The notes under the pieces: model-generated
Database searches by the model: none
What the model saw: the letters and a program-made list of their open reading frames with translations, nothing else
What the model was told of the DNA's origin: nothing
Shown: positions 7,042 through 34,392 of the stretch, one piece after another
How the letters are laid out: each line of letters opens with the position of its first letter
Numbering within the stretch: the first letter of the stretch is position 1
Program-made: the position numbers and the translations under genes
IMG/VR virus record: IMGVR_UViG_3300021964_009400
DNA: 64,000 nucleotides
Reading direction: 5' to 3' (one strand)
From: a virus
Taxonomy: Duplodnaviria > Caudoviricetes

Positions 7042-7179
7042 GTGGTAAAATCAGATTTAAAAGAATTAGATGGTATGTATTATGTAGGACACCTCATTGA
7101 TATAGATGGTAGTGGTTATGTAGATGAGGAAACTGCAGAACTAATCCTATTAGAATATAATGCAGGAGTTGCTGAATGA
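7042..7179 (+). CDS. Small acidic hypothetical protein (45 aa, not in ORF track)
   Basis: GTG start, MVKSDLKELDGMYYVGHLIDIDGSGYVDEETAELILLEYNAGVAE; its TGA overlaps the polymerase ATG (ATGA). Confidence 0.55.
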   Translation: MVKSDLKELDGMYYVGHLIDIDGSGYVDEETAELILLEYNAGVAE

Positions 7180-8483
7180 TAATAGTAGAAACTAATAAAG
7201 AGAAAGAACAATTTCTCGAATATTGGAATAACGAACAATCAACGATTATTCCAATTTGGGAAGATTTGGAAAGACATCCTATGAATAATGGGTTGTCCTT
7301 TCTTTATATTGCCTTTTCCCAAGAACATTTTATCTTACCGTTTAATCACAATGATTGTGAAAAATTAGAAATAGATTTATCAACCTCGAATCAAATGAAG
7401 TTTTGTTGGAATAAAAAAGGATTACTACAAGCAAAACTCAATATAACCAACCTCAAAGATGTACAATCATCTTTATTCTTTAATAAGAATGAATTATATC
7501 CTTTCTATGAGAAAATAGAGGTTCTAACGAACTTTTACCATAGATTGGGTATAAGAGATGATTTAGGTAAATCAATCCCTATAATGAAGTGGGGTGAGGT
7601 TCTACGAGAGATTGTTGGTGAATGGGGAGATATTTCTCCTTCACATCCAAATTATCTTAGAGAATTCCTTAAAGATAATACAACTTGGATTGATGATACG
7701 ATGATTCCTATCCTTTCAGATTTAGAACAAAGTGGTTTGGGGGTCGATAGGAAAAAATTTATTGATAGATGGCCTCAAAACTTAAAACACATTTACCTAC
7801 ATCCACAAGGAGATGTTGTTTATACCGAATATAATCCTTACACAATAACAAGTAGACCTTCAAACAGACATGGTGGTGTTAACTTCTCTGCTCTTAACAA
7901 AAAAGATGGTTCACGAGAATGTTTTATTCCACCCGAAGATTCTCTATTCTTACAATTTGATTACGATGCATACCATGTACGAATTATTGGTAAGTTGATT
8001 GGATATGATTTACCCGATACTTCGGTTCACCAATGGTTGGCAGACCAATATGGTTGTGATTATGATGAAAGTAAAGGAAGAACCTTTAGAATCCTTTATG
8101 GTGGTGTAAGTGATGAAGATAGAAAAATCCCATTCTTTGATAAGGTGGATAAGTTTATACAATCCTTAAATGATAAAGCACTTCAAAATGGATATATTCA
8201 AACTCCAAAAGGAAGAAAAATCCCATTAAGTTGGATTGAAAAACCCAATTCACAAAAGTTATTCAATTATTTACTACAAGCAACCGAAACCGAGTTCAAT
8301 ATCGAGGCGATGAAAAAGTTGAAAGAAAACGACCTACCCCTACCTATCCTTTACACATACGATAGTTTTTTATTTGAGTTCGATAATTCTGAGGTTGATA
8401 CTATTAAAAAGGTTAAGTCCGTCCTTGAAAGTTTTGGATTTCCTGTCAAAGCAGATTGGGGTAAGGATTACTCAAAAATCTAA
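7176..8483 (+). CDS. Compact family A DNA polymerase (Pol I-like)
   Basis: YTITSRPSN, motif A QFDYDAYHVR, motif B SKGRTFRILYG, motif C LYTYDSFLFE; no 5'-3' exonuclease domain. Confidence 0.8.
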   Translation: MIIVETNKEKEQFLEYWNNEQSTIIPIWEDLERHPMNNGLSFLYIAFSQEHFILPFNHNDCEKLEIDLSTSNQMKFCWNKKGLLQAKLNITNLKDVQSSLFFNKNELYPFYEKIEVLTNFYHRLGIRDDLGKSIPIMKWGEVLREIVGEWGDISPSHPNYLREFLKDNTTWIDDTMIPILSDLEQSGLGVDRKKFIDRWPQNLKHIYLHPQGDVVYTEYNPYTITSRPSNRHGGVNFSALNKKDGSRECFIPPEDSLFLQFDYDAYHVRIIGKLIGYDLPDTSVHQWLADQYGCDYDESKGRTFRILYGGVSDEDRKIPFFDKVDKFIQSLNDKALQNGYIQTPKGRKIPLSWIEKPNSQKLFNYLLQATETEFNIEAMKKLKENDLPLPILYTYDSFLFEFDNSEVDTIKKVKSVLESFGFPVKADWGKDYSKI

Positions 8484-14329: not shown

Positions 14330-14758
14330 ATGGCAGAAGCAATAAAAAAACAAAGTAAAAATCACAAATTTAACCCAATTAAAGTAGAACCTCAATATGA
14401 TGAAATTATTGCATATGATAATCCTGAAATAGTAGAGAAGATGGAAAAAGAATGGCCAGAAATGACTGCGGAATTCAAAAGAATAATGTTCACACAATAT
14501 GAATTGTTTTGTTTAAAACAATCTAACTATGGACCTGATAATATTTCAGTTGGTTCAAAATTAGAAACTGAAGAAGAAAAGAAAGTTTCATTAACTGGTC
14601 TTTGGTTTAGAATGAATGATAAGATTCAAAGATTAAAACAATTAGTTGTACTTGGTAAACAAGATAATATTGGTGAATCATGTGAAGATACATTCCAAGA
14701 TTTATCAGTATATGGAATCATTGCTCAACTCGTTTCAAGTGGTAAGTGGGCAAAATAA
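14330..14758 (+). CDS. Nmad1/DUF1599 nucleotide-modification-associated protein (all-alpha NTP-PPase-like)
   Basis: KQSNYGPDNI...GLWFRMNDKIQRL...ESCEDTFQDLSVYGII. Confidence 0.75.
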   Translation: MAEAIKKQSKNHKFNPIKVEPQYDEIIAYDNPEIVEKMEKEWPEMTAEFKRIMFTQYELFCLKQSNYGPDNISVGSKLETEEEKKVSLTGLWFRMNDKIQRLKQLVVLGKQDNIGESCEDTFQDLSVYGIIAQLVSSGKWAK

Positions 14759-14774
14759 ATTAAAAAAAAATACG

Positions 14775-14812
14775 AAAAGCCATTGTAGTCTCAATTTTTT
14801 TTCGTATATTTA
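14775..14812 (+). promoter_or_regulatory. Early-type promoter cassette, copy 4
   Basis: AAAAGCCATTGTAGTCTCAATTTTTTTTCGTATATTTA; followed by a GTGTGA-GAGT-TCACAC hairpin at 14823-14838. Confidence 0.75.
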
Positions 14813-14867
14813 CATAGTAAATGTGTGAGAGTTCACACTTGATATTAAAATTTAAAAGATAAAAGAA

Positions 14868-15377
14868 ATGAAAAAAGTAAATGTTTTTAAAACTACATTC
14901 CCAAATGGAGAAACTCACTATGGCGTTAGTGAACAAGTTCACTCAATTGAATCATATTTGAGTAAAACAAAAAGTATTGCAATTACCAAATCAAAAAAAG
15001 GATTACATATTAGTAAATTTCAATTAGACTTAGTTAATTTTGAAAACGAATTGGTTATAGAATTATTATTTACATTCGATAATAGTGAAGATGCTAAAAT
15101 AAAACGAGATGAGTTAATTAAAACTGATATAAACTCGATAAATAACTTATCGGCTAACACCAAATCTAAACTTGATTACAAATTAGAACAAATCAAACTT
15201 CCAATTGAAAAAAGTAAATCAATGACATCTAAAAATGGAAATAAGATTTACTTTGTTGACCTTGGATATGCTAAATTAAAAGGTATTCTTGATAAAATCA
15301 ACATAAATTCAAAACACCCATTGTTACCAAACTTTGTAATGGTAAACGAGGGTTCATATAAAGTAGTTAGAGCGTAA
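14868..15377 (+). CDS. Hypothetical protein (weak GIY-YIG-like N-terminus)
   Basis: 169 aa; first gene of the RM-like unit; its stop overlaps the next start. Confidence 0.55.
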   Translation: MKKVNVFKTTFPNGETHYGVSEQVHSIESYLSKTKSIAITKSKKGLHISKFQLDLVNFENELVIELLFTFDNSEDAKIKRDELIKTDINSINNLSANTKSKLDYKLEQIKLPIEKSKSMTSKNGNKIYFVDLGYAKLKGILDKININSKHPLLPNFVMVNEGSYKVVRA

Positions 15378-17608
15378 TGATAAACAAATTAAATACATTA
15401 ATAGAAAAAAAAAGAGGTAATATACTCTTTCAGACACCGCTTGATACTAATCTTGAAGTATTTGGTAGATTAGGACAGGGTTTGTATGCTTGGACATATC
15501 GAGACCAATATTTAAGTGGTAAGTTTAAACCAAAGTTTGGTCAATATGGTACATATTCAAACGAAGGTTCAACTCCACAAGAAACAATATCTGGTTATGT
15601 TGGAACTACCACCGATGCAATTGTTATTTTATGGGCAATCAGATTATCAGATGAACAAATTCAAAAATACGGTACAGCATACCAGATAGAACAGAAAGTA
15701 GGACCACATTTGGGTAAAAAAAGTAAATTTGGTTCATCTACTGAGGTATTTGAAACAGATGTTGAAACTATTCAAGAATTGGTAAATTCAATTCTTTATC
15801 CAAGTGAATTTGAAACTTTTTGGAATGTTCGTAAAGAAACATATTTACCTCGTTTAAGACAAGAAGAAGCAATTAAATTATTTGAACAATATTATTTAGC
15901 AAATAAGCTATCATCAAAAAGACAATCACTTGATTTTCTTCTTGGTGCAGTTATGAGATTTGGTAAAAACTTTACTTTTCTTGAAATGGCACGAAAAATT
16001 GTTAAAAAAGGAGGTAATGTTTTAATGATTACAAGTAGACCCGATGTATTTGAATCACTTAAAACCGATGTTAATTCTCATGTAAACTATAATGGTTGGA
16101 TTTATGATGAACTTAAAGATAAGAAGTATAATTGGAAACCATCAAATGAACGAGTAAATGTACTTGCAGTTAGTACACAACTTCTTCTTCATAAAACCCA
16201 CCGAAAAAATTTAGTAAAAATGTTATCTCAATATGATTGGGATATTCGAGGTGTTGATGAAGCTGACACTGCAATGTTAACCGAACTATCAACCGAACTT
16301 CTTGAAAAACTTCCATCCTCTGTTACGATTTGGATTACAGGAACACCTTGGAAGTTACTTTCAACTGGTAAATTTACCCCACACAATTCTTATATTTACG
16401 ATTACATTCAACAACAAGAAGATAAGAAACTTGGTATTGATAAAAGAGCTATATCTCTTGATTGGTATTGTATGGAAGTATTTGATAAAATTAAAGAACA
16501 ACAAAAGTGGTATTCCGATGAAGAAGGATTTACTTTGACAAAGTTATTTTCGTGGAATAAAGAAACTAAAAGATTTATTCACGAGGGGGATGTAACTACT
16601 TTTTTACAATGTGTATTTGGGATAATTCCTAAAACGAGTTTTTCACCCTACAAACTTATACCAGAATTACAACATACTTTTTGGGTATTACCTCCTAATT
16701 CTGATGCAGTTATTCATCTGAAATCTTTAATTGAAAAAGTAACAAATGGAGAGTATCAAGTATTTGCTGCAACTGGTAGTGAGACAGATGATATTTCTGA
16801 AGTTAAAGATTTTTTAAAATTAAATAAAGATAAAAAATCAATAGTACTATCACTTAGTAGATTTACACGAGGTTCAACTGTACCAGAATGGGATGCTACC
16901 TTTTTCTTAAATGATACCGAATCTGCTGAGTTTTATTTTCAAACAGCATTTAGACCAACATCTCCAAAAGATGGTAAAGAAAAAGGATATGTTTTTGATT
17001 TCAATCCAAACAGAACTTTAGTGATGTTGGCTGAATATTCAAGATATTCTGCTCAACAAAGAGGTATTAAAAATCCAAATGAAATTTTAAGACAATATCT
17101 CGATAATTTTAATGTTTATGGTGTTGACGGTGGAGTTGAATTTAAGAAAAAAACATTAGAAGATGTATTATCAGCTATTAGAGATTCAGACTATAATTCA
17201 AAAACTTTAAGAAACTCAGGCCACGATTATGTTATGTTAGATAAAATCTCTGAAAAATTATTTCAAATGATTATGGGATTGGACAAAGAAAAAAGTCGTA
17301 AACTTAAACTTGAAATCACATCTTCAAAAGAATTTATGAAAAAAGGTAAAAATTTAAAACATCTTTCAGAATCAGAAAGAAAACCTTTTGATAAAACTAA
17401 AAGAGATATTATTTCAAGAATAGCAACTTTAATGAGTAGATTGCCTATTATATGTGAACTTGGTTATGAAACAGTTGAAGATATTTTAGAAAATCTACCA
17501 GATAACTTATTTTATGGGGCAACAAAAACTGAAAAATCAGTTTTAAAGTTGTTAGTAAAAGAAAATATAATTGATACATACAAAGTAAATCTTCAACTTG
17601 TACGATAA
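15377..17608 (+). CDS. Restriction-type SF2 (DEAD) helicase with putative N-terminal GIY-YIG/T5orf172-like nuclease domain
   Basis: AVMRFGKNF (motif I), VDEADT (II), ITGTP (III), RGSTVPEWD and YFQTAFRP (V/VI); N-terminal LYAW..KFGQ..IEQKV..H..EVFE. Confidence 0.75.
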   Translation: MINKLNTLIEKKRGNILFQTPLDTNLEVFGRLGQGLYAWTYRDQYLSGKFKPKFGQYGTYSNEGSTPQETISGYVGTTTDAIVILWAIRLSDEQIQKYGTAYQIEQKVGPHLGKKSKFGSSTEVFETDVETIQELVNSILYPSEFETFWNVRKETYLPRLRQEEAIKLFEQYYLANKLSSKRQSLDFLLGAVMRFGKNFTFLEMARKIVKKGGNVLMITSRPDVFESLKTDVNSHVNYNGWIYDELKDKKYNWKPSNERVNVLAVSTQLLLHKTHRKNLVKMLSQYDWDIRGVDEADTAMLTELSTELLEKLPSSVTIWITGTPWKLLSTGKFTPHNSYIYDYIQQQEDKKLGIDKRAISLDWYCMEVFDKIKEQQKWYSDEEGFTLTKLFSWNKETKRFIHEGDVTTFLQCVFGIIPKTSFSPYKLIPELQHTFWVLPPNSDAVIHLKSLIEKVTNGEYQVFAATGSETDDISEVKDFLKLNKDKKSIVLSLSRFTRGSTVPEWDATFFLNDTESAEFYFQTAFRPTSPKDGKEKGYVFDFNPNRTLVMLAEYSRYSAQQRGIKNPNEILRQYLDNFNVYGVDGGVEFKKKTLEDVLSAIRDSDYNSKTLRNSGHDYVMLDKISEKLFQMIMGLDKEKSRKLKLEITSSKEFMKKGKNLKHLSESERKPFDKTKRDIISRIATLMSRLPIICELGYETVEDILENLPDNLFYGATKTEKSVLKLLVKENIIDTYKVNLQLVR

Positions 17609-18840
17609 TGGAAATTAGAACACGAGAACAATATATTAGTTACATAAGAAGAACATCAACTATCCCTACTGGACAAGATGGTTCTACTCCCATTAAAGTA
17701 ATTGAAGAAATGGTAAATAAATTACCAATAGATTGGTCAAATCCTAATTTAAAAATCCTAGACCCAGGGTTTGGATTTGGTGGTTATTTATTCTTTGTAT
17801 ATTTAAAATTAATTCAATATCATTCAGAAGAACACATATTAAATAATATGTTATATGGTATAGAAATTGAAGATTTTAGATTTGAACTTGTTAATCATAA
17901 ATTAAAAATAAAAAATCTAATTAAAGGAGATTTTTTAGATAATAAAATATTTAAAAATATGAATTTTGATGTAATACTTGGAAACCCACCATATCAAGAA
18001 ACCAGTAAGACGGGTGGTGTTCAACCAAAAGCTCATAATTTATGGAGCAAATTTATTGTTGAATCTTTAAATAATAATTTATCAACAGGTGGTGTTGTTT
18101 CGTTTGTAACACCGACTTCATGGGGAAGTCCTAGCAATGATGTATTTAAATTATTTAAAAAAAACAACTTAGTTTTAATCAATACTGAAATCTCTAATCA
18201 CTTTGATGTTGGTTCTACCTTTTCATATTGGATTGTTAAAAATGAAGCATATATCGGTAATACTAATATAAATGGTGTTAATTTTGATTTAAACAACTTT
18301 GACTATATTCAATCTGATATTAATAGCATATCTACTAAAATACATAAGATATTTAATGAATCACCATTTCCAAAATTTAATTGGGATGGTGATACTACTA
18401 CAAATCACTCATCTAAAAAAGAAAATCAATGGTCTGATAAATATTCTACAACTCATCCATATAAAGTATATCACACGAATGCACAATCATACTATTCAAA
18501 GATAAAATCAAAATCTCATGATGATTTTAAAGTATATCTAACTATTAGTGGGTATTACAATCCTTTATTTGATAATGGTACTATTAGTACAAGTGAAGTA
18601 GTTCCATATATAATTGTCAAATCAAAAAAAGAAGGGGAAAATTTATTAAATATTTTAAATTCTAAATTATACAAATATATTGTTAGTTCTGCCAAATGGA
18701 GTGGTTTTATAAATAAAGATATATTAAGAATTTTACCAAATATTGGAACTAATAAAGAATGGAGTGATGGTGAAATTTATAATAAGTTTGGAATAAAAAG
18801 TATTGAAGATATTAACTACATTGAAAACTATGTTGGATAA
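17608..18840 (+). CDS. Gamma-class amino-methyltransferase (Eco57I-like, probably m6A)
   Basis: ILDPGFGFGGY (motif I) precedes ILGNPPY (motif IV); TRD-like C-terminus. Confidence 0.85.
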   Translation: MEIRTREQYISYIRRTSTIPTGQDGSTPIKVIEEMVNKLPIDWSNPNLKILDPGFGFGGYLFFVYLKLIQYHSEEHILNNMLYGIEIEDFRFELVNHKLKIKNLIKGDFLDNKIFKNMNFDVILGNPPYQETSKTGGVQPKAHNLWSKFIVESLNNNLSTGGVVSFVTPTSWGSPSNDVFKLFKKNNLVLINTEISNHFDVGSTFSYWIVKNEAYIGNTNINGVNFDLNNFDYIQSDINSISTKIHKIFNESPFPKFNWDGDTTTNHSSKKENQWSDKYSTTHPYKVYHTNAQSYYSKIKSKSHDDFKVYLTISGYYNPLFDNGTISTSEVVPYIIVKSKKEGENLLNILNSKLYKYIVSSAKWSGFINKDILRILPNIGTNKEWSDGEIYNKFGIKSIEDINYIENYVG

Positions 18841-19303
18841 TTTTATTGAACATAGTAGAAATCGCTCTTATATGAGTGGTATAGAAAGAGATAAACTTCG
18901 AGTAAAAGAAACGGCTGAAGTATTTACTCCTACACCATTGGTGCAGGAAATGTTGGATAAACTTGAAGAACGAGATTCGGAACTATTTTCAAACTCAACT
19001 AAAACATTTTTAGACCCATCGTGTGGTGATGGTCAATTCCTTTCCGAAGTAGTAATCAGAAAAATGGAAAGAAGTCATTGTACTTTAGAACAAGCACTTT
19101 CTACAACTTATGGAGTAGAACTTATGGAAGATAATGTAAAGTTATGTAAAGAAAGATTGGGAGGACCAAATCCAACTGAAGAAATTTTGGATATCCTTGA
19201 TAAAAATATTGTTTGTGCAGATGCACTTACTTATCATTATAGATTCGATGAAACACCATCAGATGTAAGTGATATTGAAGTAAAATTAAATCAATTTTTA
19301 TGA
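18830..19303 (+). CDS. Short methyltransferase-like subunit lacking catalytic motif IV
   Basis: RVKETAEVFTP, FLDPSCGDGQFL, YGVELMEDNV, NIVCADAL, then stop; no NPPY/DPPY. Confidence 0.75.
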   Translation: MLDNFIEHSRNRSYMSGIERDKLRVKETAEVFTPTPLVQEMLDKLEERDSELFSNSTKTFLDPSCGDGQFLSEVVIRKMERSHCTLEQALSTTYGVELMEDNVKLCKERLGGPNPTEEILDILDKNIVCADALTYHYRFDETPSDVSDIEVKLNQFL

Positions 19304-19344
19304 TAAAATAACTCAAAAATTCGGTGTATTTTTTGAGTTTTATT

Positions 19345-19353
19345 ATATTTATA
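19345..19353 (+). promoter_or_regulatory. Putative phage promoter motif upstream of gp32
   Basis: ATATTTATA. Confidence 0.45.
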
Positions 19354-19361
19354 TATACACC

Positions 19362-19436
19362 GAGTGTTGTTAGTTTAGCACTCAAAATTTAAACTTAAAA
19401 TTAATTATTTATTAACAATTTAAAAATTTAAACATT
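19362..19436 (+). promoter_or_regulatory. Putative gp32 autoregulatory mRNA leader (H-type pseudoknot + AU-rich tract)
   Basis: S1 GAGTG(19362-66)/CACTC(19379-83); S2 AGTTTA(19372-77)/TAAACT(19390-95); then 41 nt AU-rich with TTAAA repeats to the ATG. Confidence 0.55.
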
Positions 19437-20258
19437 ATGGCATTAGACATTAACGCAATCAGAAGTAGGCTGAACAAACTACAAAACACACAAAGAAAAT
19501 CAGACTCTTTGTGGAAACCTACTCCAGGTAAACATCAAGTAAGAATCGTTCCTTACAAATTCGACAAAGATAATCCATTTATCGAATTGTATTTTCACTA
19601 CAACATTAACAACAAAACTTATCTTTCACCACAATCTTTTGGTAGACCAGACCCTATTGTAGAGTTTGCAGATAAACTAAAAAGAATGGGTGATAAAGAT
19701 GATTGGAAAGCTGCAAAAGCTATGGAACCAAAGTTAAGAACTTTCGTACCTGTTGTTGTAAGAGGTGAAGAAGGTGAAGGAGTAAGATTTTGGGGATTTG
19801 GTAAAACAGTATATCAAGAAATTCTTGGATATATTGCAGATCCTGATTATGGTGATATTACCGACCCAACAAGTGGTAGAGATTTAACAATCGAGTATAA
19901 ATCAGCAGAAGAAGCTGGTACTACTTATCCAACTACTACTATTAGAGTTAAACCAAATGAAACACCAGTAAGTGAAGATGCAACAAGAGCAACTGCATTT
20001 ATTGAATCACAAACCGAAATTACAGATTTATATTCTGAATTATCTTATGATGAATTAAAATCAGTATTAGAAGGTTGGTTGAACCCAACTGCAGAAAGTG
20101 GAGGTGACTCAGTTTCTCAAGAAACTCTTTCAACTGCACCTAAAAAAGAAACAACTGTATCTCATGATATGGGAGGTTCTAAAGAAGTAACTGAAAAATC
20201 AGATTCAAAGAAAACTGATGATGTTGCTGCTGCATTTGATGATTTGTTTAACAACTAA
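19437..20258 (+). CDS. Single-stranded DNA-binding protein (T4 gp32-like)
   Basis: WKP..GKHQVRIVP, GVRFWGFGKTVY, DITDP..GRDL, acidic tail DDVAAAFDDLFNN; precedes uvsX. Confidence 0.85.
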   Translation: MALDINAIRSRLNKLQNTQRKSDSLWKPTPGKHQVRIVPYKFDKDNPFIELYFHYNINNKTYLSPQSFGRPDPIVEFADKLKRMGDKDDWKAAKAMEPKLRTFVPVVVRGEEGEGVRFWGFGKTVYQEILGYIADPDYGDITDPTSGRDLTIEYKSAEEAGTTYPTTTIRVKPNETPVSEDATRATAFIESQTEITDLYSELSYDELKSVLEGWLNPTAESGGDSVSQETLSTAPKKETTVSHDMGGSKEVTEKSDSKKTDDVAAAFDDLFNN

Positions 20259-31875: not shown

Positions 31876-34392
31876 ATGTATCAAAACATTTATTACCAGA
31901 GAGAAAAAAATCTAATCCACTTGTGGGATGACCAAAGAGGATATTCATCTTTTCCTTATACACGATATGCATACGAACCTGCTGAAAGAGGAGAATATAC
32001 TTCTATCTATGGAGATAAACTTACAAAGATTTACAAGTTTAAAAAAGATGATACAAACCTTTTTGAATCAGATGTACCAGAAACTACAAGAGCTTTAGTA
32101 GATTTATATTCGGATTCCGATGAACCATCTACTGGTCATGTAATTCTCACATACGATATTGAGTGTGAAATGGAAAGTGGATTACCAGACCCACAAGAAG
32201 CAAAAAATGAAATTACTTCTATTGCACTTCATGATTCAGCTACCAATCAATATTGGGTATTGGTTATGGATAAAGATAATATTCTTGAAGAAAAAACTAC
32301 TGATAAATGTATTGTAATTCCTTTCAGAGATGAAAGAGATATGTTGATGAAATATTTGGAATTATATGAGTATATCAACCCTTCAATAGTGACGGGTTGG
32401 AATATTGATTATTTCGATACACCAATGTTATATAACAGAATTAAAAGATTATTAGGACAAAGACAAGCAAATAGATTATCACCAATCGGACAGTGTTTCT
32501 GGTCACCTTATAGAAAAAGATATTTTATGGCAGGTGTATCTTATTTGGATTATATAACATTGTATAAGAAATTTAACTATGGTGAACTTCCAAATTATCG
32601 ATTAGATACAATAGGACAAATTGAATTAGGTAGAGGTAAGATTGAGTATCAAGGAAATCTTGACCAATTATTTAAAGAAGATATTGAAAAGTTTATTGAG
32701 TACAACTTAGTAGATGTTGAGTTGGTAGTTGAATTTGATAAAAAACTTCAGTTCATTGATTTATGTAGAGGTATTACTCATGCGGGTCATGTACCTTATG
32801 AAGATTTTGTTTATTCATCAAAATATCTCGAAGGTGCATTACTATCATTCCTTAGAAGAAAAAATTTAGTTGCACCAAATAAACCTGCTGATAGACAAGA
32901 GAGAATGCAGGCGATTAGAGATAACAACGAAGAAAAGTTTATTGGGGCTTATGTAAAAGCACCAATCGTTGGAAAATATGATTGGGTATATGATTTAGAT
33001 TTAACTTCACTATATCCTTCAATCATTATGACTTTGAACATTTCACCAGAATCAAAGATTGGTAAGATTCAAGATTGGGATGCTAACAAGTTCGTTAAAG
33101 GTGAAGTTGATACTTATTATATCGGAGAGGATTCTATTTCAAAAGAAAACTTAAAAAAATACTTAGAACAATCAAAGTTTTCAGTTGCTTCTAATGGTGT
33201 TTTGTATAGAACTGATAAAGTTGGTTGTATACCTGATATTCTTAATCTTTGGTTTGACCAAAGAGTTGAGTTTAAAAATGAAATGAAAAAATATGGTAAA
33301 GCAGGTAATAAAGAAAAATATGCCTTTTACGCGAAAAGACAGTTGGTTCAAAAAATTCTACTCAACTCTCTTTATGGTGTTCTTGGTCTCCCTGCCTTTC
33401 GGTTCTATGATGTGGATAATGCGGAGGCAGTTACTACGACAGGTCAAACAGTTATTAAATCAACTGCGGATATGGGTAATATCAAATATAACAAAGAACT
33501 TAATACTCCTAATGCTGATTCTAACATTTATATTGATACTGATTCTGTATTCTTTTCCGCAGTTCCTTTGATGGACAAAAGAATCCCAAATTGGAAAGAA
33601 CAAGACCAAGATACAATTGCTGGTTATGTAAATGAGATTGCAGAAGAGATGCAAGATTACCTTAATGATTTCTACAATATACTTTCAAAAAAAGTTCTAA
33701 ATGTTGATAAAGATAAACATAGATTAGAGATTAAGAAAGAGTATGTTGCTAAAGCAGGATTGTGGATTGCAAAGAAAAGATATGCCCAATGGATTATTTC
33801 AGATAATGGTGTACCAGTAGATAAACTCGATGTAAAAGGTTTGGATGTTAAACGAAGTAGTTTCCCTAAGGCATTCCAAGAAATAATGGCAGATGTTCTT
33901 ATATCAATTCTAAGAGGACAATCGGAAGAAGAAATATCAGATAAAGTTTTGGCATTTAAAAAATCTATGATAAATCAAGATGTAGCTGTCATTGCAAAGA
34001 ATTCAGCAGTAAAAAATCTTAGAAAGTATATGCCAAAAGGTAAAAGAGAACGATTCTCTATAATGAAAGGAACACCTGCTCATGTTAAAGCTGCAATCCT
34101 TTACAATGATTGTTTACAACATTTTAATGCACCATTCAAATATGAACCAATGAAAAATGGTGATAAAGTAAAATGGGTTTACCTTAAAGATAATCCTCTT
34201 GGAATCGATGGATTAGCATTTACAGGTTATTCAGACCCACCAGAGATAGAAAAATTTATTCAAACTTATATTGACCACAATAAAATATTTGAAAGAGAAC
34301 TCAAACACAAACTACAAGATTTCTTCGATGCAATCGGTTGGGGAGATGTTGTGAGTGAACAAAGAACGGCTGAAAAGTTTTTTAGTTTTTAG
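31876..34392 (+). CDS. Family B DNA polymerase (T4 gp43-like)
   Basis: Exo TYDIECE and GWNIDYFD; DLDLTSLYPSII; KILLNSLYG; YIDTDS. Confidence 0.95.
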   Translation: MYQNIYYQREKNLIHLWDDQRGYSSFPYTRYAYEPAERGEYTSIYGDKLTKIYKFKKDDTNLFESDVPETTRALVDLYSDSDEPSTGHVILTYDIECEMESGLPDPQEAKNEITSIALHDSATNQYWVLVMDKDNILEEKTTDKCIVIPFRDERDMLMKYLELYEYINPSIVTGWNIDYFDTPMLYNRIKRLLGQRQANRLSPIGQCFWSPYRKRYFMAGVSYLDYITLYKKFNYGELPNYRLDTIGQIELGRGKIEYQGNLDQLFKEDIEKFIEYNLVDVELVVEFDKKLQFIDLCRGITHAGHVPYEDFVYSSKYLEGALLSFLRRKNLVAPNKPADRQERMQAIRDNNEEKFIGAYVKAPIVGKYDWVYDLDLTSLYPSIIMTLNISPESKIGKIQDWDANKFVKGEVDTYYIGEDSISKENLKKYLEQSKFSVASNGVLYRTDKVGCIPDILNLWFDQRVEFKNEMKKYGKAGNKEKYAFYAKRQLVQKILLNSLYGVLGLPAFRFYDVDNAEAVTTTGQTVIKSTADMGNIKYNKELNTPNADSNIYIDTDSVFFSAVPLMDKRIPNWKEQDQDTIAGYVNEIAEEMQDYLNDFYNILSKKVLNVDKDKHRLEIKKEYVAKAGLWIAKKRYAQWIISDNGVPVDKLDVKGLDVKRSSFPKAFQEIMADVLISILRGQSEEEISDKVLAFKKSMINQDVAVIAKNSAVKNLRKYMPKGKRERFSIMKGTPAHVKAAILYNDCLQHFNAPFKYEPMKNGDKVKWVYLKDNPLGIDGLAFTGYSDPPEIEKFIQTYIDHNKIFERELKHKLQDFFDAIGWGDVVSEQRTAEKFFSF

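What the first reader, a model, noticed from the sequence alone, without database searches (positions are those of the whole stretch)
14775..19303. Phage-encoded RM-like triplet: nuclease-helicase, full gamma methylase and catalytically incomplete half-methylase
Seen: behind an early-type cassette, overlapping genes encode an SF2 helicase with a putative N-terminal nuclease, an NPPY methylase, and a 157-aa protein with the SAM-binding half (EVFTP, FLDPSCGDG) that stops cleanly before any motif IV. There is no frameshifted continuation; stops follow at once. Established: helicase-plus-methylase architectures underlie Type III/ISP restriction, and phages can carry defence systems against competing phages. 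Inference: an anti-competitor restriction system or a host-RM decoy, in which the half-methylase could be a SAM-binding regulatory or stoichiometric subunit.
Basis: partly seen in the sequence, partly recalled or inferred. Interest (0 to 1): 0.6.

Follow-up and report, generated by a model that had tools for sequence, protein, structure and literature searches.

The report
Phage motor-methylase module with separate cofactor-binding half
An uncultured T4-like phage carries a four-gene cassette: a small protein of unknown function, a DNA motor protein, a complete adenine methylase, and a small conserved protein that is only the cofactor-binding half of a methylase. That half belongs to a very large, apparently unstudied family that supplies the cofactor site in trans for many phage methylases and is a fixed third part of a widespread bacterial restriction-like system.

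Summary
Four coupled genes lie at 14868-19303: a 169-aa unknown, a 743-aa SF2 motor with a T5orf172-like N-terminus, a complete 410-aa gamma-class N6-adenine methylase, and a 157-aa protein with motifs X and I-III only.

The short gene is not a pseudogene. It has thousands of homologues of the same length, and dN/dS is 0.10-0.27. It is also the first gene of the conserved gp32 replication block, and the genes upstream of it are hypervariable.

In related phages its partner is often a catalytic/TRD-only gene, with five such genes before one small gene in L019. Natural fusions also exist; one folds confidently, and its best structural matches are beta-class methylases aligned across both halves.

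In bacteria the same three proteins form a conserved cassette.

In this window the methylase keeps its own canonical, conserved cofactor half. A strict split is therefore not shown here, and what the extra half does here is unresolved.

Restriction is doubtful, because this clade's T5orf172-like domain lacks the family's conserved Arg and His.

The scan has noted the same system before on other DNA (for example e1-5368385, e1-2385285, e1-5878879). I found no published description.

The parts
14868..15377 (+). 169-aa first gene of the cassette; function unknown, weak GIY-YIG-like lead
   Evidence: No Pfam, PHROG, NCBIfam or PADLOC family. ESM Atlas feature hits to GIY-YIG-type clusters score 0.92-0.93 but share only 136-146 features, so this is a lead only. 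One homologue (33% identity) lies upstream in L018. TAATG overlap with the next gene.
15377..17608 (+). 743-aa motor protein: T5orf172-like N-terminal domain (about residues 30-140), SF2 ResIII/SNF2-type ATPase (about 155-570), helical C-terminal region
   Evidence: Motifs GKN, DEAD and TGTP. phrog_22930 and phrog_16. 58 of 64 homologues match Pfam ResIII and 20 of 64 match T5orf172. The profile's best PDB hit is HsdR 3h1t, E 2.7e-15. AF2 model pLDDT 89, pTM 0.87. Foldseek finds SNF2 remodellers, RadD, XPB and Type ISP LlaBIII 4xqk. The N-domain keeps Y37, K53, G55 and E123 but lacks the family's Arg and His.
17608..18840 (+). 410-aa complete gamma-class N6-adenine DNA methylase: its own cofactor-binding half (17608-17958), then motif IV onward plus target-recognition domain (17959-18840)
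   Evidence: Pfam Eco57I and N6_Mtase above cut-off. PADLOC MTase_II 1.8e-24. The N-half plus catalytic core is 44-71% identical in homologues whose recognition domains differ. The C-part is collinear with natural fusions P0126 and P0146.
17959..17994 (+). Motif IV segment MNFDVILGNPPY. It starts with the Met (M118) that is the start codon of catalytic-half-only genes in relatives
   Evidence: The Met is present in 27 of 40 distinct phage partners and in the bacterial full-length enzymes. A 47-70-nt island at 17928-18001 is the only DNA similarity to relatives upstream of the small gene.
18830..19303 (+). 157-aa stand-alone cofactor (SAM)-binding half-methylase, motifs X and I-III
   Evidence: phrog_4376 1.5e-17, phrog_21201 5e-17, and the C-terminus of phrog_11371 2.5e-20. 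7433 homologues of 86-275 aa. dN/dS 0.10-0.27. Conserved columns cover motifs X and I-III plus a family hallmark, YGV..M.DNV..C..RL.
19304..19345 (+). AT-rich hairpin plus T-run after the small gene; possible terminator closing the cassette
   Evidence: Read directly from the sequence. The consensus scan did not call it, so this is weak.
19437..20258 (+). gp32-type single-strand DNA-binding protein (context). Together with the small gene it begins the conserved replication block
   Evidence: Pfam gp32 3.5e-13. DNA homology to L005, L007, L011 and L012 runs from about 18841-18868 through gp32 for kilobases. UvsX, an exonuclease and a gp41-like helicase lie downstream.

Best explanation
The cassette is the phage version of a widespread three-part module: a T5orf172-SF2 DNA translocase, a gamma-class N6-adenine methylase with a target-recognition domain, and a stand-alone cofactor-binding half-methylase (N'). 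N' is an old, selected protein family, not debris.

Shown for the family: N' is the half of the methylase fold carrying motifs X and I-III. In many phages it sits behind genes that encode only motif IV onward plus the recognition domain. When the two are naturally fused, the model is a confident single body whose best structural matches are beta-class methylases aligned across both halves.

Inferred for the family: N' docks on the catalytic half in trans and supplies the SAM site, so one constant cofactor subunit can serve interchangeable specificity subunits.

Shown in this window: the methylase is complete on its own and its own cofactor half is conserved. N' is translationally coupled to it. 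N' marks the border between a hypervariable methylase/motor island and the conserved gp32 block.

Inferred in this window: the motor and methylase work as one machine, since they are one chain in many relatives. N' is a third subunit of that machine. The module mainly methylates phage DNA to protect it from host restriction, rather than cutting DNA, because this clade's nuclease-like domain has lost key conserved residues. How N' contributes when the methylase already has a cofactor half is not resolved.
For: Real, selected gene:
- 7433 homologues of 86-275 aa; the close ones (76-94% identity) nearly all have 144-179 residues.
- dN/dS is 0.10-0.27 against 13 relatives, including relatives with full-length partners.
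- Motifs X and I-III are invariant or nearly so.

Partner of a catalytic half:
- In P-SSM2 and S-CAM7 the overlapping upstream gene starts at GNPPY.
- Among 49 distinct partners, 7 are catalytic-half-only or nearly so, 22 lack a canonical motif I and 12 have one.
- L019 has five tandem catalytic-half genes with divergent recognition domains and a single N'.

Natural fusions:
- P0126-P0131, P0135, P0136, P0146 and P0417 carry NPPF/Y near residue 8, then a recognition domain, then an N'-like domain at the C-terminus.
- P0126 maps collinearly onto window 17974-18834 plus 18836-19300.
- Its AF2 model has pLDDT 92, pTM 0.90.
- VIA-align's best hits are beta-class enzymes (M.MboIIA Z 11.3, M.RsrI 10.7, CcrM 10.6) aligned across model residues 1 to about 431-459. 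Gamma-class hits (M.TaqI, CamA) cover only 1 to about 290.

Three-part module:
- 50 of the motor's 150 best representatives exceed 900 aa; most of these carry an NPPY/F motif or an N'-like domain downstream of the motor, i.e. motor-methylase fusions.
- Phage loci L006, L033, L068, L081 and L083 have the same three genes in the same order.
- About 45 bacterial genomes have an overlapping cassette of the same three proteins, with the motor HMM near E 1e-180.

Boundary role: DNA homology to related phages begins at the N' start.

Methylase is self-sufficient: its DPxFGFG-type N-half is conserved at 44-71% identity in homologues with different recognition domains.

Nuclease doubt.
Against: Here the methylase has canonical motifs I, II and III of its own. 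The 'missing half' logic therefore does not apply, and the docking surface that N' uses in split relatives should already be occupied in cis. No multimer prediction or biochemistry was possible, so contact between N' and the methylase or the motor is not shown for this window. Loss of Arg and His in the T5orf172-like domain does not prove loss of nuclease activity, and the 169-aa protein could be a nuclease. Why a purely protective methylase would need a motor is unexplained. In the bacterial cassettes the methylase has an altered motif I (K for the first G) and no motif II acid, which fits complementation. M.TaqI also has a non-Gly at the first Gly position (my own knowledge), so 'defective' is an inference.
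Confidence: 0.6

Rival explanations
1. Active phage-borne restriction-modification of the Type ISP kind. The motor protein (or the 169-aa protein) cuts unmethylated DNA after ATP-driven translocation, the methylase marks phage DNA as self, and N' is a required subunit. The purpose would be to degrade host DNA or exclude competing phages.
For: The domain order (nuclease-like, SF2 motor, gamma methylase, recognition domain) matches Type ISP. LlaBIII 4xqk is among the best structural matches, with TMq 0.41 over 723 columns. A PADLOC REase_MTase_IIG model covers the bacterial motor and methylase. The wider T5orf172 domain keeps GIY-YIG-type Y, K-G-T, R, H and EWF. The bacterial cassettes look like defence islands. 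The Type ISP literature mentions an uncharacterised cohort with helicases and GIY-YIG nucleases (PMC3553950).
Against: This window's clade lacks the conserved Arg and His. The window protein itself matches no Pfam nuclease family. A sequence profile of the motor family does not retrieve LlaGI or LlaBIII at E 0.1. Most phage N'-methylase pairs have no motor.
Confidence: 0.22
2. N' is a SAM-sensing or licensing subunit rather than part of the catalytic site. It reports cofactor availability to the motor or methylase, as SAM acts allosterically in Type I, III and IIG enzymes, or it sets the balance between methylation and translocation.
For: N' is retained under purifying selection alongside methylases with a canonical cofactor half of their own (window, L006, L068, L083). 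It carries a family-specific conserved helix (M.DNV..C..RL) outside the SAM motifs, which could be an interaction surface. It is the constant member of the three-gene cassette in bacteria.
Against: This does not explain catalytic-half-only partners or the natural fusions that model as one complete methylase fold. No direct evidence exists.
Confidence: 0.2
3. In this particular genome N' is functionally redundant. It stays intact only because the upstream methylase cassette is swapped so often that N' is frequently needed, being essential whenever the incoming cassette lacks a working cofactor half.
For: There is a sharp homology break at the N' start. Close relatives carry N' at 85-90% identity but partners at only 27-28% identity (L005, L006) or with no detectable similarity (L007). 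Partners of all grades, from half-only to complete, occur in one phage group. The complete methylase here needs no help in principle.
Against: dN/dS is not visibly relaxed in lineages with complete partners. Stable bacterial cassettes also keep the half.
Confidence: 0.15
4. The 157-aa ORF is a truncated pseudogene of a once complete methylase.
For: It ends just where motif IV should be. The tail in some relatives reads FDGTPPY. One relative, P0134, has an N'-like N-terminus fused to a catalytic half.
Against: There are thousands of same-length homologues with invariant SAM motifs and dN/dS of 0.10-0.27. The gene is translationally coupled to its partner across divergent loci. Bacterial orthologues share the same hallmark motif.
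Confidence: 0.02

Closest known systems
[quoted passage not shown]
   Same: Same order of functions: nuclease-type domain, SF2 dsDNA-translocase-like ATPase, gamma-class adenine methylase, recognition domain. LlaBIII is among the best structural matches of the motor model.
   Different: Here the parts are separate polypeptides. The N-terminal domain is T5orf172 (GIY-YIG superfamily), not Mrr, and in this clade it lacks conserved residues. An extra stand-alone cofactor-binding half is present. A sequence profile did not retrieve LlaGI or LlaBIII.
Gamma-class N6-adenine methylases with a C-terminal recognition domain (M.TaqI, CamA, M.BseCI; Pfam Eco57I PF07669 and N6_Mtase PF02384)
   Same: The 410-aa protein has their motif order and passes both Pfam cut-offs. 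They are the best Foldseek hits of the fused relative's catalytic and recognition part.
   Different: Those enzymes are single self-sufficient chains. None is known to me to have a separate second cofactor-binding half encoded next to it.
Beta-class amino-methylases (M.MboIIA, M.RsrI, CcrM, M.PvuII, Type III Mod)
   Same: The natural fusions of catalytic half plus N' have the beta-class linear order (IV-VIII, recognition domain, X, I-III). They align to these structures across both halves at Z 9.9-11.3.
   Different: By sequence the family belongs with Eco57I/N6_Mtase (gamma). In this window the two halves are not fused, and the catalytic half also has a gamma-order cofactor half in cis. Iyer et al. 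2021 (PMC7824862) mention circularly permuted M.EcoKI-like methylases in jumbo phages in one sentence, but not a split form.
Naturally split cytosine-5 methylases M.AquI and M.EcoHK31I (my own knowledge; engineered fragment complementation of M.SssI appears in a PMC3404938 title and abstract listed)
   Same: One methylase fold is delivered by two polypeptides.
   Different: Those are C5 enzymes split at another point, each with one dedicated partner. Here it is an amino-methylase split between motifs III and IV, with one constant half and many alternative catalytic halves.
Type I systems (HsdM/HsdS/HsdR)
   Same: The logic is a constant subunit plus exchangeable specificity. The recognition domain of the fused relative resembles HsdS domains (1yf2 Z 9.0). 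The motor profile's best PDB hit is an HsdR.
   Different: In Type I the methylase fold is intact and specificity lies in a separate S subunit. Here the split runs through the methylase fold itself.

Membership tests
Gamma-class N6-adenine DNA methylase (410-aa protein) | Motif order X, I, II, III, IV (NPPY), then the recognition domain; Pfam Eco57I or N6_Mtase above gathering score | tested here: met
   GSTP, ILDPGFGFGG, YGIEIE, GDFLD and ILGNPPY occur in that order. Eco57I 43.5 bits against 25.3; N6_Mtase 30.2 against 20.4.
Stand-alone half-methylase family (phrog_4376 / phrog_21201; 157-aa protein) | About 130-240 aa, motifs X and I-III only, hallmark YGV(D/E)(L/I)M.DNV..C(R/K).RL, encoded next to a methylase gene | tested here: met
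   PHROG hits 1.5e-17 and 5e-17 cover the whole profile. Hallmark columns are invariant or nearly so and are shared with the bacterial halves. An adjacent, overlapping partner is present.
Split two-chain methylase (half-methylase strictly needed to complete the partner) | The partner lacks a functional cofactor-binding half | tested here: not met
   In this window the partner has canonical motifs I-III, and that N-half is conserved across homologues. The feature is met in relatives: P-SSM2, S-CAM7, L019, L034, L036, L071.
Split two-chain methylase | The two chains associate and both are required for methyl transfer | not testable with these tools
   No multimer prediction or assay was available. 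The indirect support is the fused homologue's single-body model, pTM 0.90.
Type ISP restriction-modification | A single polypeptide with an Mrr-family nuclease at the N-terminus | tested here: not met
   The genes are separate. The N-terminal domain is T5orf172-like, not Mrr.
Type ISP restriction-modification | SF2 helicase-like ATPase coupled to a gamma methylase and a recognition domain | tested here: met
   Motifs GKN, DEAD and TGTP. Motor-methylase fusions among homologues. Structural match to LlaBIII.
Type ISP restriction-modification | ATP-dependent translocation and collision-dependent DNA cleavage | not testable with these tools
   This needs biochemistry.
T5orf172 / GIY-YIG superfamily nuclease domain (N-terminus of the motor) | Pfam T5orf172 or MUG113 match and conserved Y, K-G-T, R, H and E(W)F | tested here: inconclusive
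   The window protein gives no Pfam hit. 20 of 64 homologues do, and ESM Atlas features score 0.94. Y37, K53, G55 and E123 are kept. The Arg and His columns are not.
Bacterial three-gene cassette (half-methylase + methylase + T5orf172-ResIII motor) | All three homologous proteins are encoded as adjacent, mostly overlapping genes | tested here: met
   Window. Bacterial loci L103-L159 were annotated with HMMs built from the phage proteins. The gene order differs: motor-methylase-half here, half-methylase-motor in Firmicutes.

The most novel reading that the evidence does not exclude
A single conserved cofactor-binding half-subunit acts as a universal module for interchangeable catalytic/recognition subunits. 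It can serve several at once, as with the five in L019. In the three-part modules of phages and bacteria, the same half also ties SAM binding to a DNA translocase. This would be a holoenzyme logic for DNA methylases, with the split running through the Rossmann-type fold, that I did not find described in the literature.
Probability: 0.4. Interest if true: 0.75.

Novelty: new variant of a known kind. Interest (0 to 1): 0.55.

Why it matters
If the half-subunit really supplies the SAM site in trans, phages have a cheap way to change or multiply methylation specificities. They keep one cofactor subunit beside gp32 and swap or stack small catalytic/recognition genes in front of it. That would bear on phage-host arms races in aquatic systems, where this family has thousands of members.

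It also offers natural material for two old questions. One is how the permuted classes of amino-methylases arose: split, fused beta-order and gamma-order forms of one family coexist here. The other is how to engineer methylase specificity from exchangeable parts.

The related bacterial three-gene cassette is a widespread, uncharacterised restriction-like system whose third component has no assigned role.

This window is the awkward case that a simple 'split enzyme' story must still explain, because its methylase is complete.

Tried and rejected
- Pseudogene reading: rejected.
- Frameshifted continuation or a second catalytic half elsewhere in the window: none found.
- Recent duplication of the methylase's own N-half as the origin of the small gene: rejected. 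The two are only about 23-30% identical in related loci, and no direct match was seen between the window's own small protein and its methylase N-half. The small protein also shares its hallmark helix with bacterial half-methylases, and the methylase's N-half does not.
- Internal translation start at M118 yielding a catalytic-half isoform that would pair with the small protein: left as a weak idea. The Met is conserved in 27 of 40 phage partners. It is equally conserved in the bacterial full-length enzymes, there is no Shine-Dalgarno sequence, and other genes here lack one too.
- The 47-70-nt DNA island at motif IV as a recombination anchor: it may only reflect a conserved peptide plus AT-rich codon bias.
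- blastn of the cassette against 50,697 phage records: no match.
- Sequence-profile link of the motor to LlaGI or LlaBIII: not retrieved at E 0.1. Only fold similarity was found.
- Promoter and terminator scan: no more sites than in shuffles, so uninformative in this AT-rich DNA.
- 169-aa protein: no family in four libraries.
Context of the closest relatives came from IMG/VR and genome-contig loci only.
- Model coordinates cannot be read in the script box, so strand-by-strand packing of the two halves in the fused model was judged only from pTM, secondary structure and aligned ranges.
Full report
WHAT IS THERE

The window is about 29% G+C with all genes on the + strand. It comes from an uncultured T4-like phage. 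A gp32 homologue, UvsX, an exonuclease, a gp41-type helicase and a family B DNA polymerase lie downstream. The best cultured match of the polymerase is Microcystis phage Mel-JY01 at 52.6% identity.

Between 14868 and 19303 lie four coupled genes:
- a 169-aa protein with no family;
- a 743-aa SF2 ATPase;
- a 410-aa methylase;
- a 157-aa protein.

The junctions are TAATG overlaps at 15377 and 17608, and an 11-nt overlap at 18830-18840.

The 157-aa protein has motifs X, I, II and III of an amino-methylase and nothing after them. Two stop codons end it, and the other frames are closed. No other catalytic half exists in the 64 kb.

THE SHORT GENE IS A REAL, SELECTED GENE

- A search of the 5.8-billion-protein collection gave 7433 hits of 86-275 aa. 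The close ones (76-94% identity) nearly all have 144-179 residues.
- Pairwise dN/dS against 13 relatives is 0.10-0.27.
- The SAM motifs and a family-specific helix, M.DNV..C..RL, are invariant or nearly so. The last 18 residues are not conserved.
- That tail reads FDGTPPY in a minority of relatives and FDETPSD here, possibly a decayed trace of motif IV.

WHERE IT SITS

DNA similarity between this window and related phage contigs (L005, L007, L011, L012) starts at 18841-18868, the start of the short gene. It continues for kilobases through gp32. Upstream there is none, apart from a 47-70-nt island over motif IV.

The short gene is therefore the first gene of the conserved replication block, and everything in front of it is a hypervariable island. 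Relatives whose short protein is 85-90% identical carry partners only 27-28% identical to this methylase (L005, L006), or with no detectable similarity to it (L007).

WHAT IT PAIRS WITH ELSEWHERE

In 76 IMG/VR loci the short gene is almost always preceded by an overlapping methylase-type gene. Among 49 distinct partners:
- 3 begin at motif IV, and 4 more have only a short leader;
- 22 have an N-terminal region without a canonical motif I, some with the glycine loop deleted;
- 12 have a canonical motif I, this window among them;
- 10 of these 34 partners that have an N-terminal region (7 non-canonical, 3 canonical) are fused to a motor;
- 8 gave no NPPY by pattern.

In the cultured cyanophages P-SSM2 and S-CAM7 the upstream gene starts MKF..GNPPY or similar and is annotated hypothetical.

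L019 has five tandem catalytic-half genes: three with NPPY and two with NIPF. Their recognition regions are 25-32% identical apart from one 52% pair. A single short gene follows them, and there is no other cofactor half in 12 kb.

NATURAL FUSIONS

At least ten distinct proteins of 457-477 aa carry motif IV near residue 8, then a recognition domain, then a C-terminal domain 46-71% identical to the short protein.

P0126 aligns collinearly to window 17974-18834 and 18836-19300. Its AlphaFold2 model, built on 93 sequences, has pLDDT 92.2 and pTM 0.90.
- Foldseek finds gamma-class enzymes (CamA, M.TaqI, M.BseCI, PglX) for the front part.
- The exhaustive VIA-align search puts beta-class enzymes on top: M.MboIIA Z 11.3, M.RsrI 10.7, CcrM 10.6, M.PvuII 9.9. 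These are aligned from residue 1 to about 431-459, that is, across both halves. Gamma-class hits stop near residue 290.
- The inserted domain resembles Type I HsdS recognition domains, Z 9.0.

So in this family the short protein's fold and a catalytic half together make one methylase fold in beta-class order.

One rare protein, P0134, has the opposite fusion: a short-protein-like N-terminus followed by a catalytic half.

THE MOTOR BELONGS TO THE SAME MACHINE

An exhaustive HMMER search with the 743-aa protein gave 1038 representatives. Fifty of the best 150 are longer than 900 aa, and most of these carry NPPY/F or an N'-like domain behind the motor, so they are motor-methylase fusions.

- Family members match Pfam ResIII (58 of 64), T5orf172 (20 of 64) and SNF2 (18 of 64).
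- The family profile's best solved relative is an HsdR (3h1t, 2.7e-15), then RadD and UvsW.
- The AF2 model (pLDDT 89, pTM 0.87) matches SNF2 remodellers, RadD, XPB and the Type ISP enzyme LlaBIII (rank 9, TMq 0.41 over 723 columns).
- The N-terminal domain resembles T5orf172/MUG113 by language-model features and predicted structure.

In the wider family this domain keeps Y, K-G-T, Arg, His and EWF. The window's clade of about 14 sequences keeps Y37, K53, G55 and E123 but has no Arg or His at those columns.

THE BACTERIAL COUNTERPART

A scan of one genome per prokaryote species with the short-protein alignment returned 298 confirmed matches. HMMs built from the phage proteins showed an overlapping three-gene cassette in about 45 bacterial genomes. 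These include Clostridia, Christensenellaceae, Oscillospiraceae, Bifidobacterium, Alphaproteobacteria and Kiritimatiellae. The cassette holds:
- a half-methylase of 170-245 aa;
- a methylase of 500-565 aa;
- a T5orf172-ResIII motor of 750-995 aa, with the motor HMM at E 1e-142 to 1e-187.

Pfam and PADLOC agree, and one PADLOC 'Type IIG restriction enzyme-methyltransferase' model of 1359 positions covers both the motor and the methylase.

The bacterial halves have canonical motifs and the same hallmark helix. In 44 of 45 cases the bacterial methylase has motif I reading DPACK(T/S)G or a close variant. The aligned examples also have no acidic residue in motif II. This suggests complementary roles. 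It is an inference, because M.TaqI also lacks the first glycine (my own knowledge).

Phage loci L006, L033, L068, L081 and L083 have the same three genes in the window's order.

WHAT THIS MEANS FOR THE WINDOW

The trio is a bona fide three-part module, and the half-methylase is its constant member. But the 410-aa methylase has canonical motifs I-III. Its DPxFGFG-type N-half plus catalytic core is 44-71% identical in homologues whose recognition domains have been exchanged. So that N-half is under constraint, and the enzyme should be self-sufficient. A strict split is not shown here.

I rank the readings as follows:
1. The short protein is a third subunit of a motor-methylase that mainly protects phage DNA.
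2. The module is an active Type ISP-like restriction system.
3. The short protein is a SAM-sensing or licensing subunit.
4. The short protein is redundant in this genome and kept intact by frequent cassette turnover.

I favour protection over restriction for two reasons: the nuclease-like domain has lost conserved residues, and most phage pairs have no motor. This step is inferred, not shown.

COMPARISON WITH THE LITERATURE AND THE SCAN

Full-text searches found no paper on a split amino-methylase of this kind or on the three-gene cassette.
- Iyer et al. 2021 mention circularly permuted M.EcoKI-like methylases in jumbo phages in one sentence (PMC7824862).
- The Type ISP paper PMC3553950 mentions an unexplored cohort with helicases and GIY-YIG nucleases.

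Earlier notes of this scan describe the same system on other DNA. I re-tested their main claims here: the split family, one half serving several catalytic halves, the bacterial cassette, and a large protein that keeps its own cofactor half. They hold.

- the homology boundary at the short gene;
- the fused homologue's model and its beta-class topology;
- the conservation of the cis N-half;
- the missing Arg and His in this clade's T5orf172-like domain.

LIMITS

Noticed in passing
L019:1706-6480: Five tandem genes encode only motif IV onward plus divergent recognition regions (three NPPY, two NIPF variants). A single half-methylase gene follows them, the clearest one-to-many case seen.
   Followed up: partly
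L106:7986-12664, L103:6467-11093 and about 40 further bacterial loci (L107-L159): Conserved three-gene bacterial cassette of half-methylase, methylase and T5orf172-ResIII motor. In 44 of 45 methylases motif I has no canonical first glycine (mostly DPACK(T/S)G, with Lys in its place), and aligned examples have no motif II acid, while the half-methylase is canonical.
   Followed up: partly
window 19241-19261 (tail of the small protein): The unconserved tail FDETPSD corresponds to FDGTPPY, TPPT or TPSD in relatives. It may be a decaying trace of motif IV from an ancestral complete enzyme.
   Followed up: partly
window 17959-17961 (M118 of the methylase): The Met that starts catalytic-half-only genes is kept inside most full-length partners, in phages and bacteria alike (MKFDV..GNPPY). 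Some longer homologues of 515-619 aa have E/D-KFD instead. The reason is unknown.
   Followed up: partly
window 14330-14758: A 142-aa protein just upstream of the cassette has a sub-threshold match to DUF1599, 'nucleotide modification associated domain 1' (E 1.3e-4, 22.7 bits against a cut-off of 25), and matches phrog_1485.
   Followed up: no
proteins P0124 and P0125 (697 aa): A half-methylase-like domain (77% identical to the window's) lies at residues 86-223 of a longer protein. That protein also carries a PF01555 (beta-class N6/N4) methylase domain with its own motif I and, in P0125, SPPY.
   Followed up: no
window 19304-19436: The spacer between the small gene and gp32 holds an AT-rich hairpin with a T-run.
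   Followed up: no
window 7176-8483: A 435-aa ORF matches a DNA polymerase PHROG (phrog_17) only in its last 110 residues, although a full family B polymerase lies at 31876-34392.
   Followed up: no
L003 (phage NatCom_35866, human gut): A different arrangement of related parts: an AAA_13 ATPase, a 260-aa half-methylase-like protein, a 506-aa Eco57I-type methylase, then a motor homologue.
   Followed up: no
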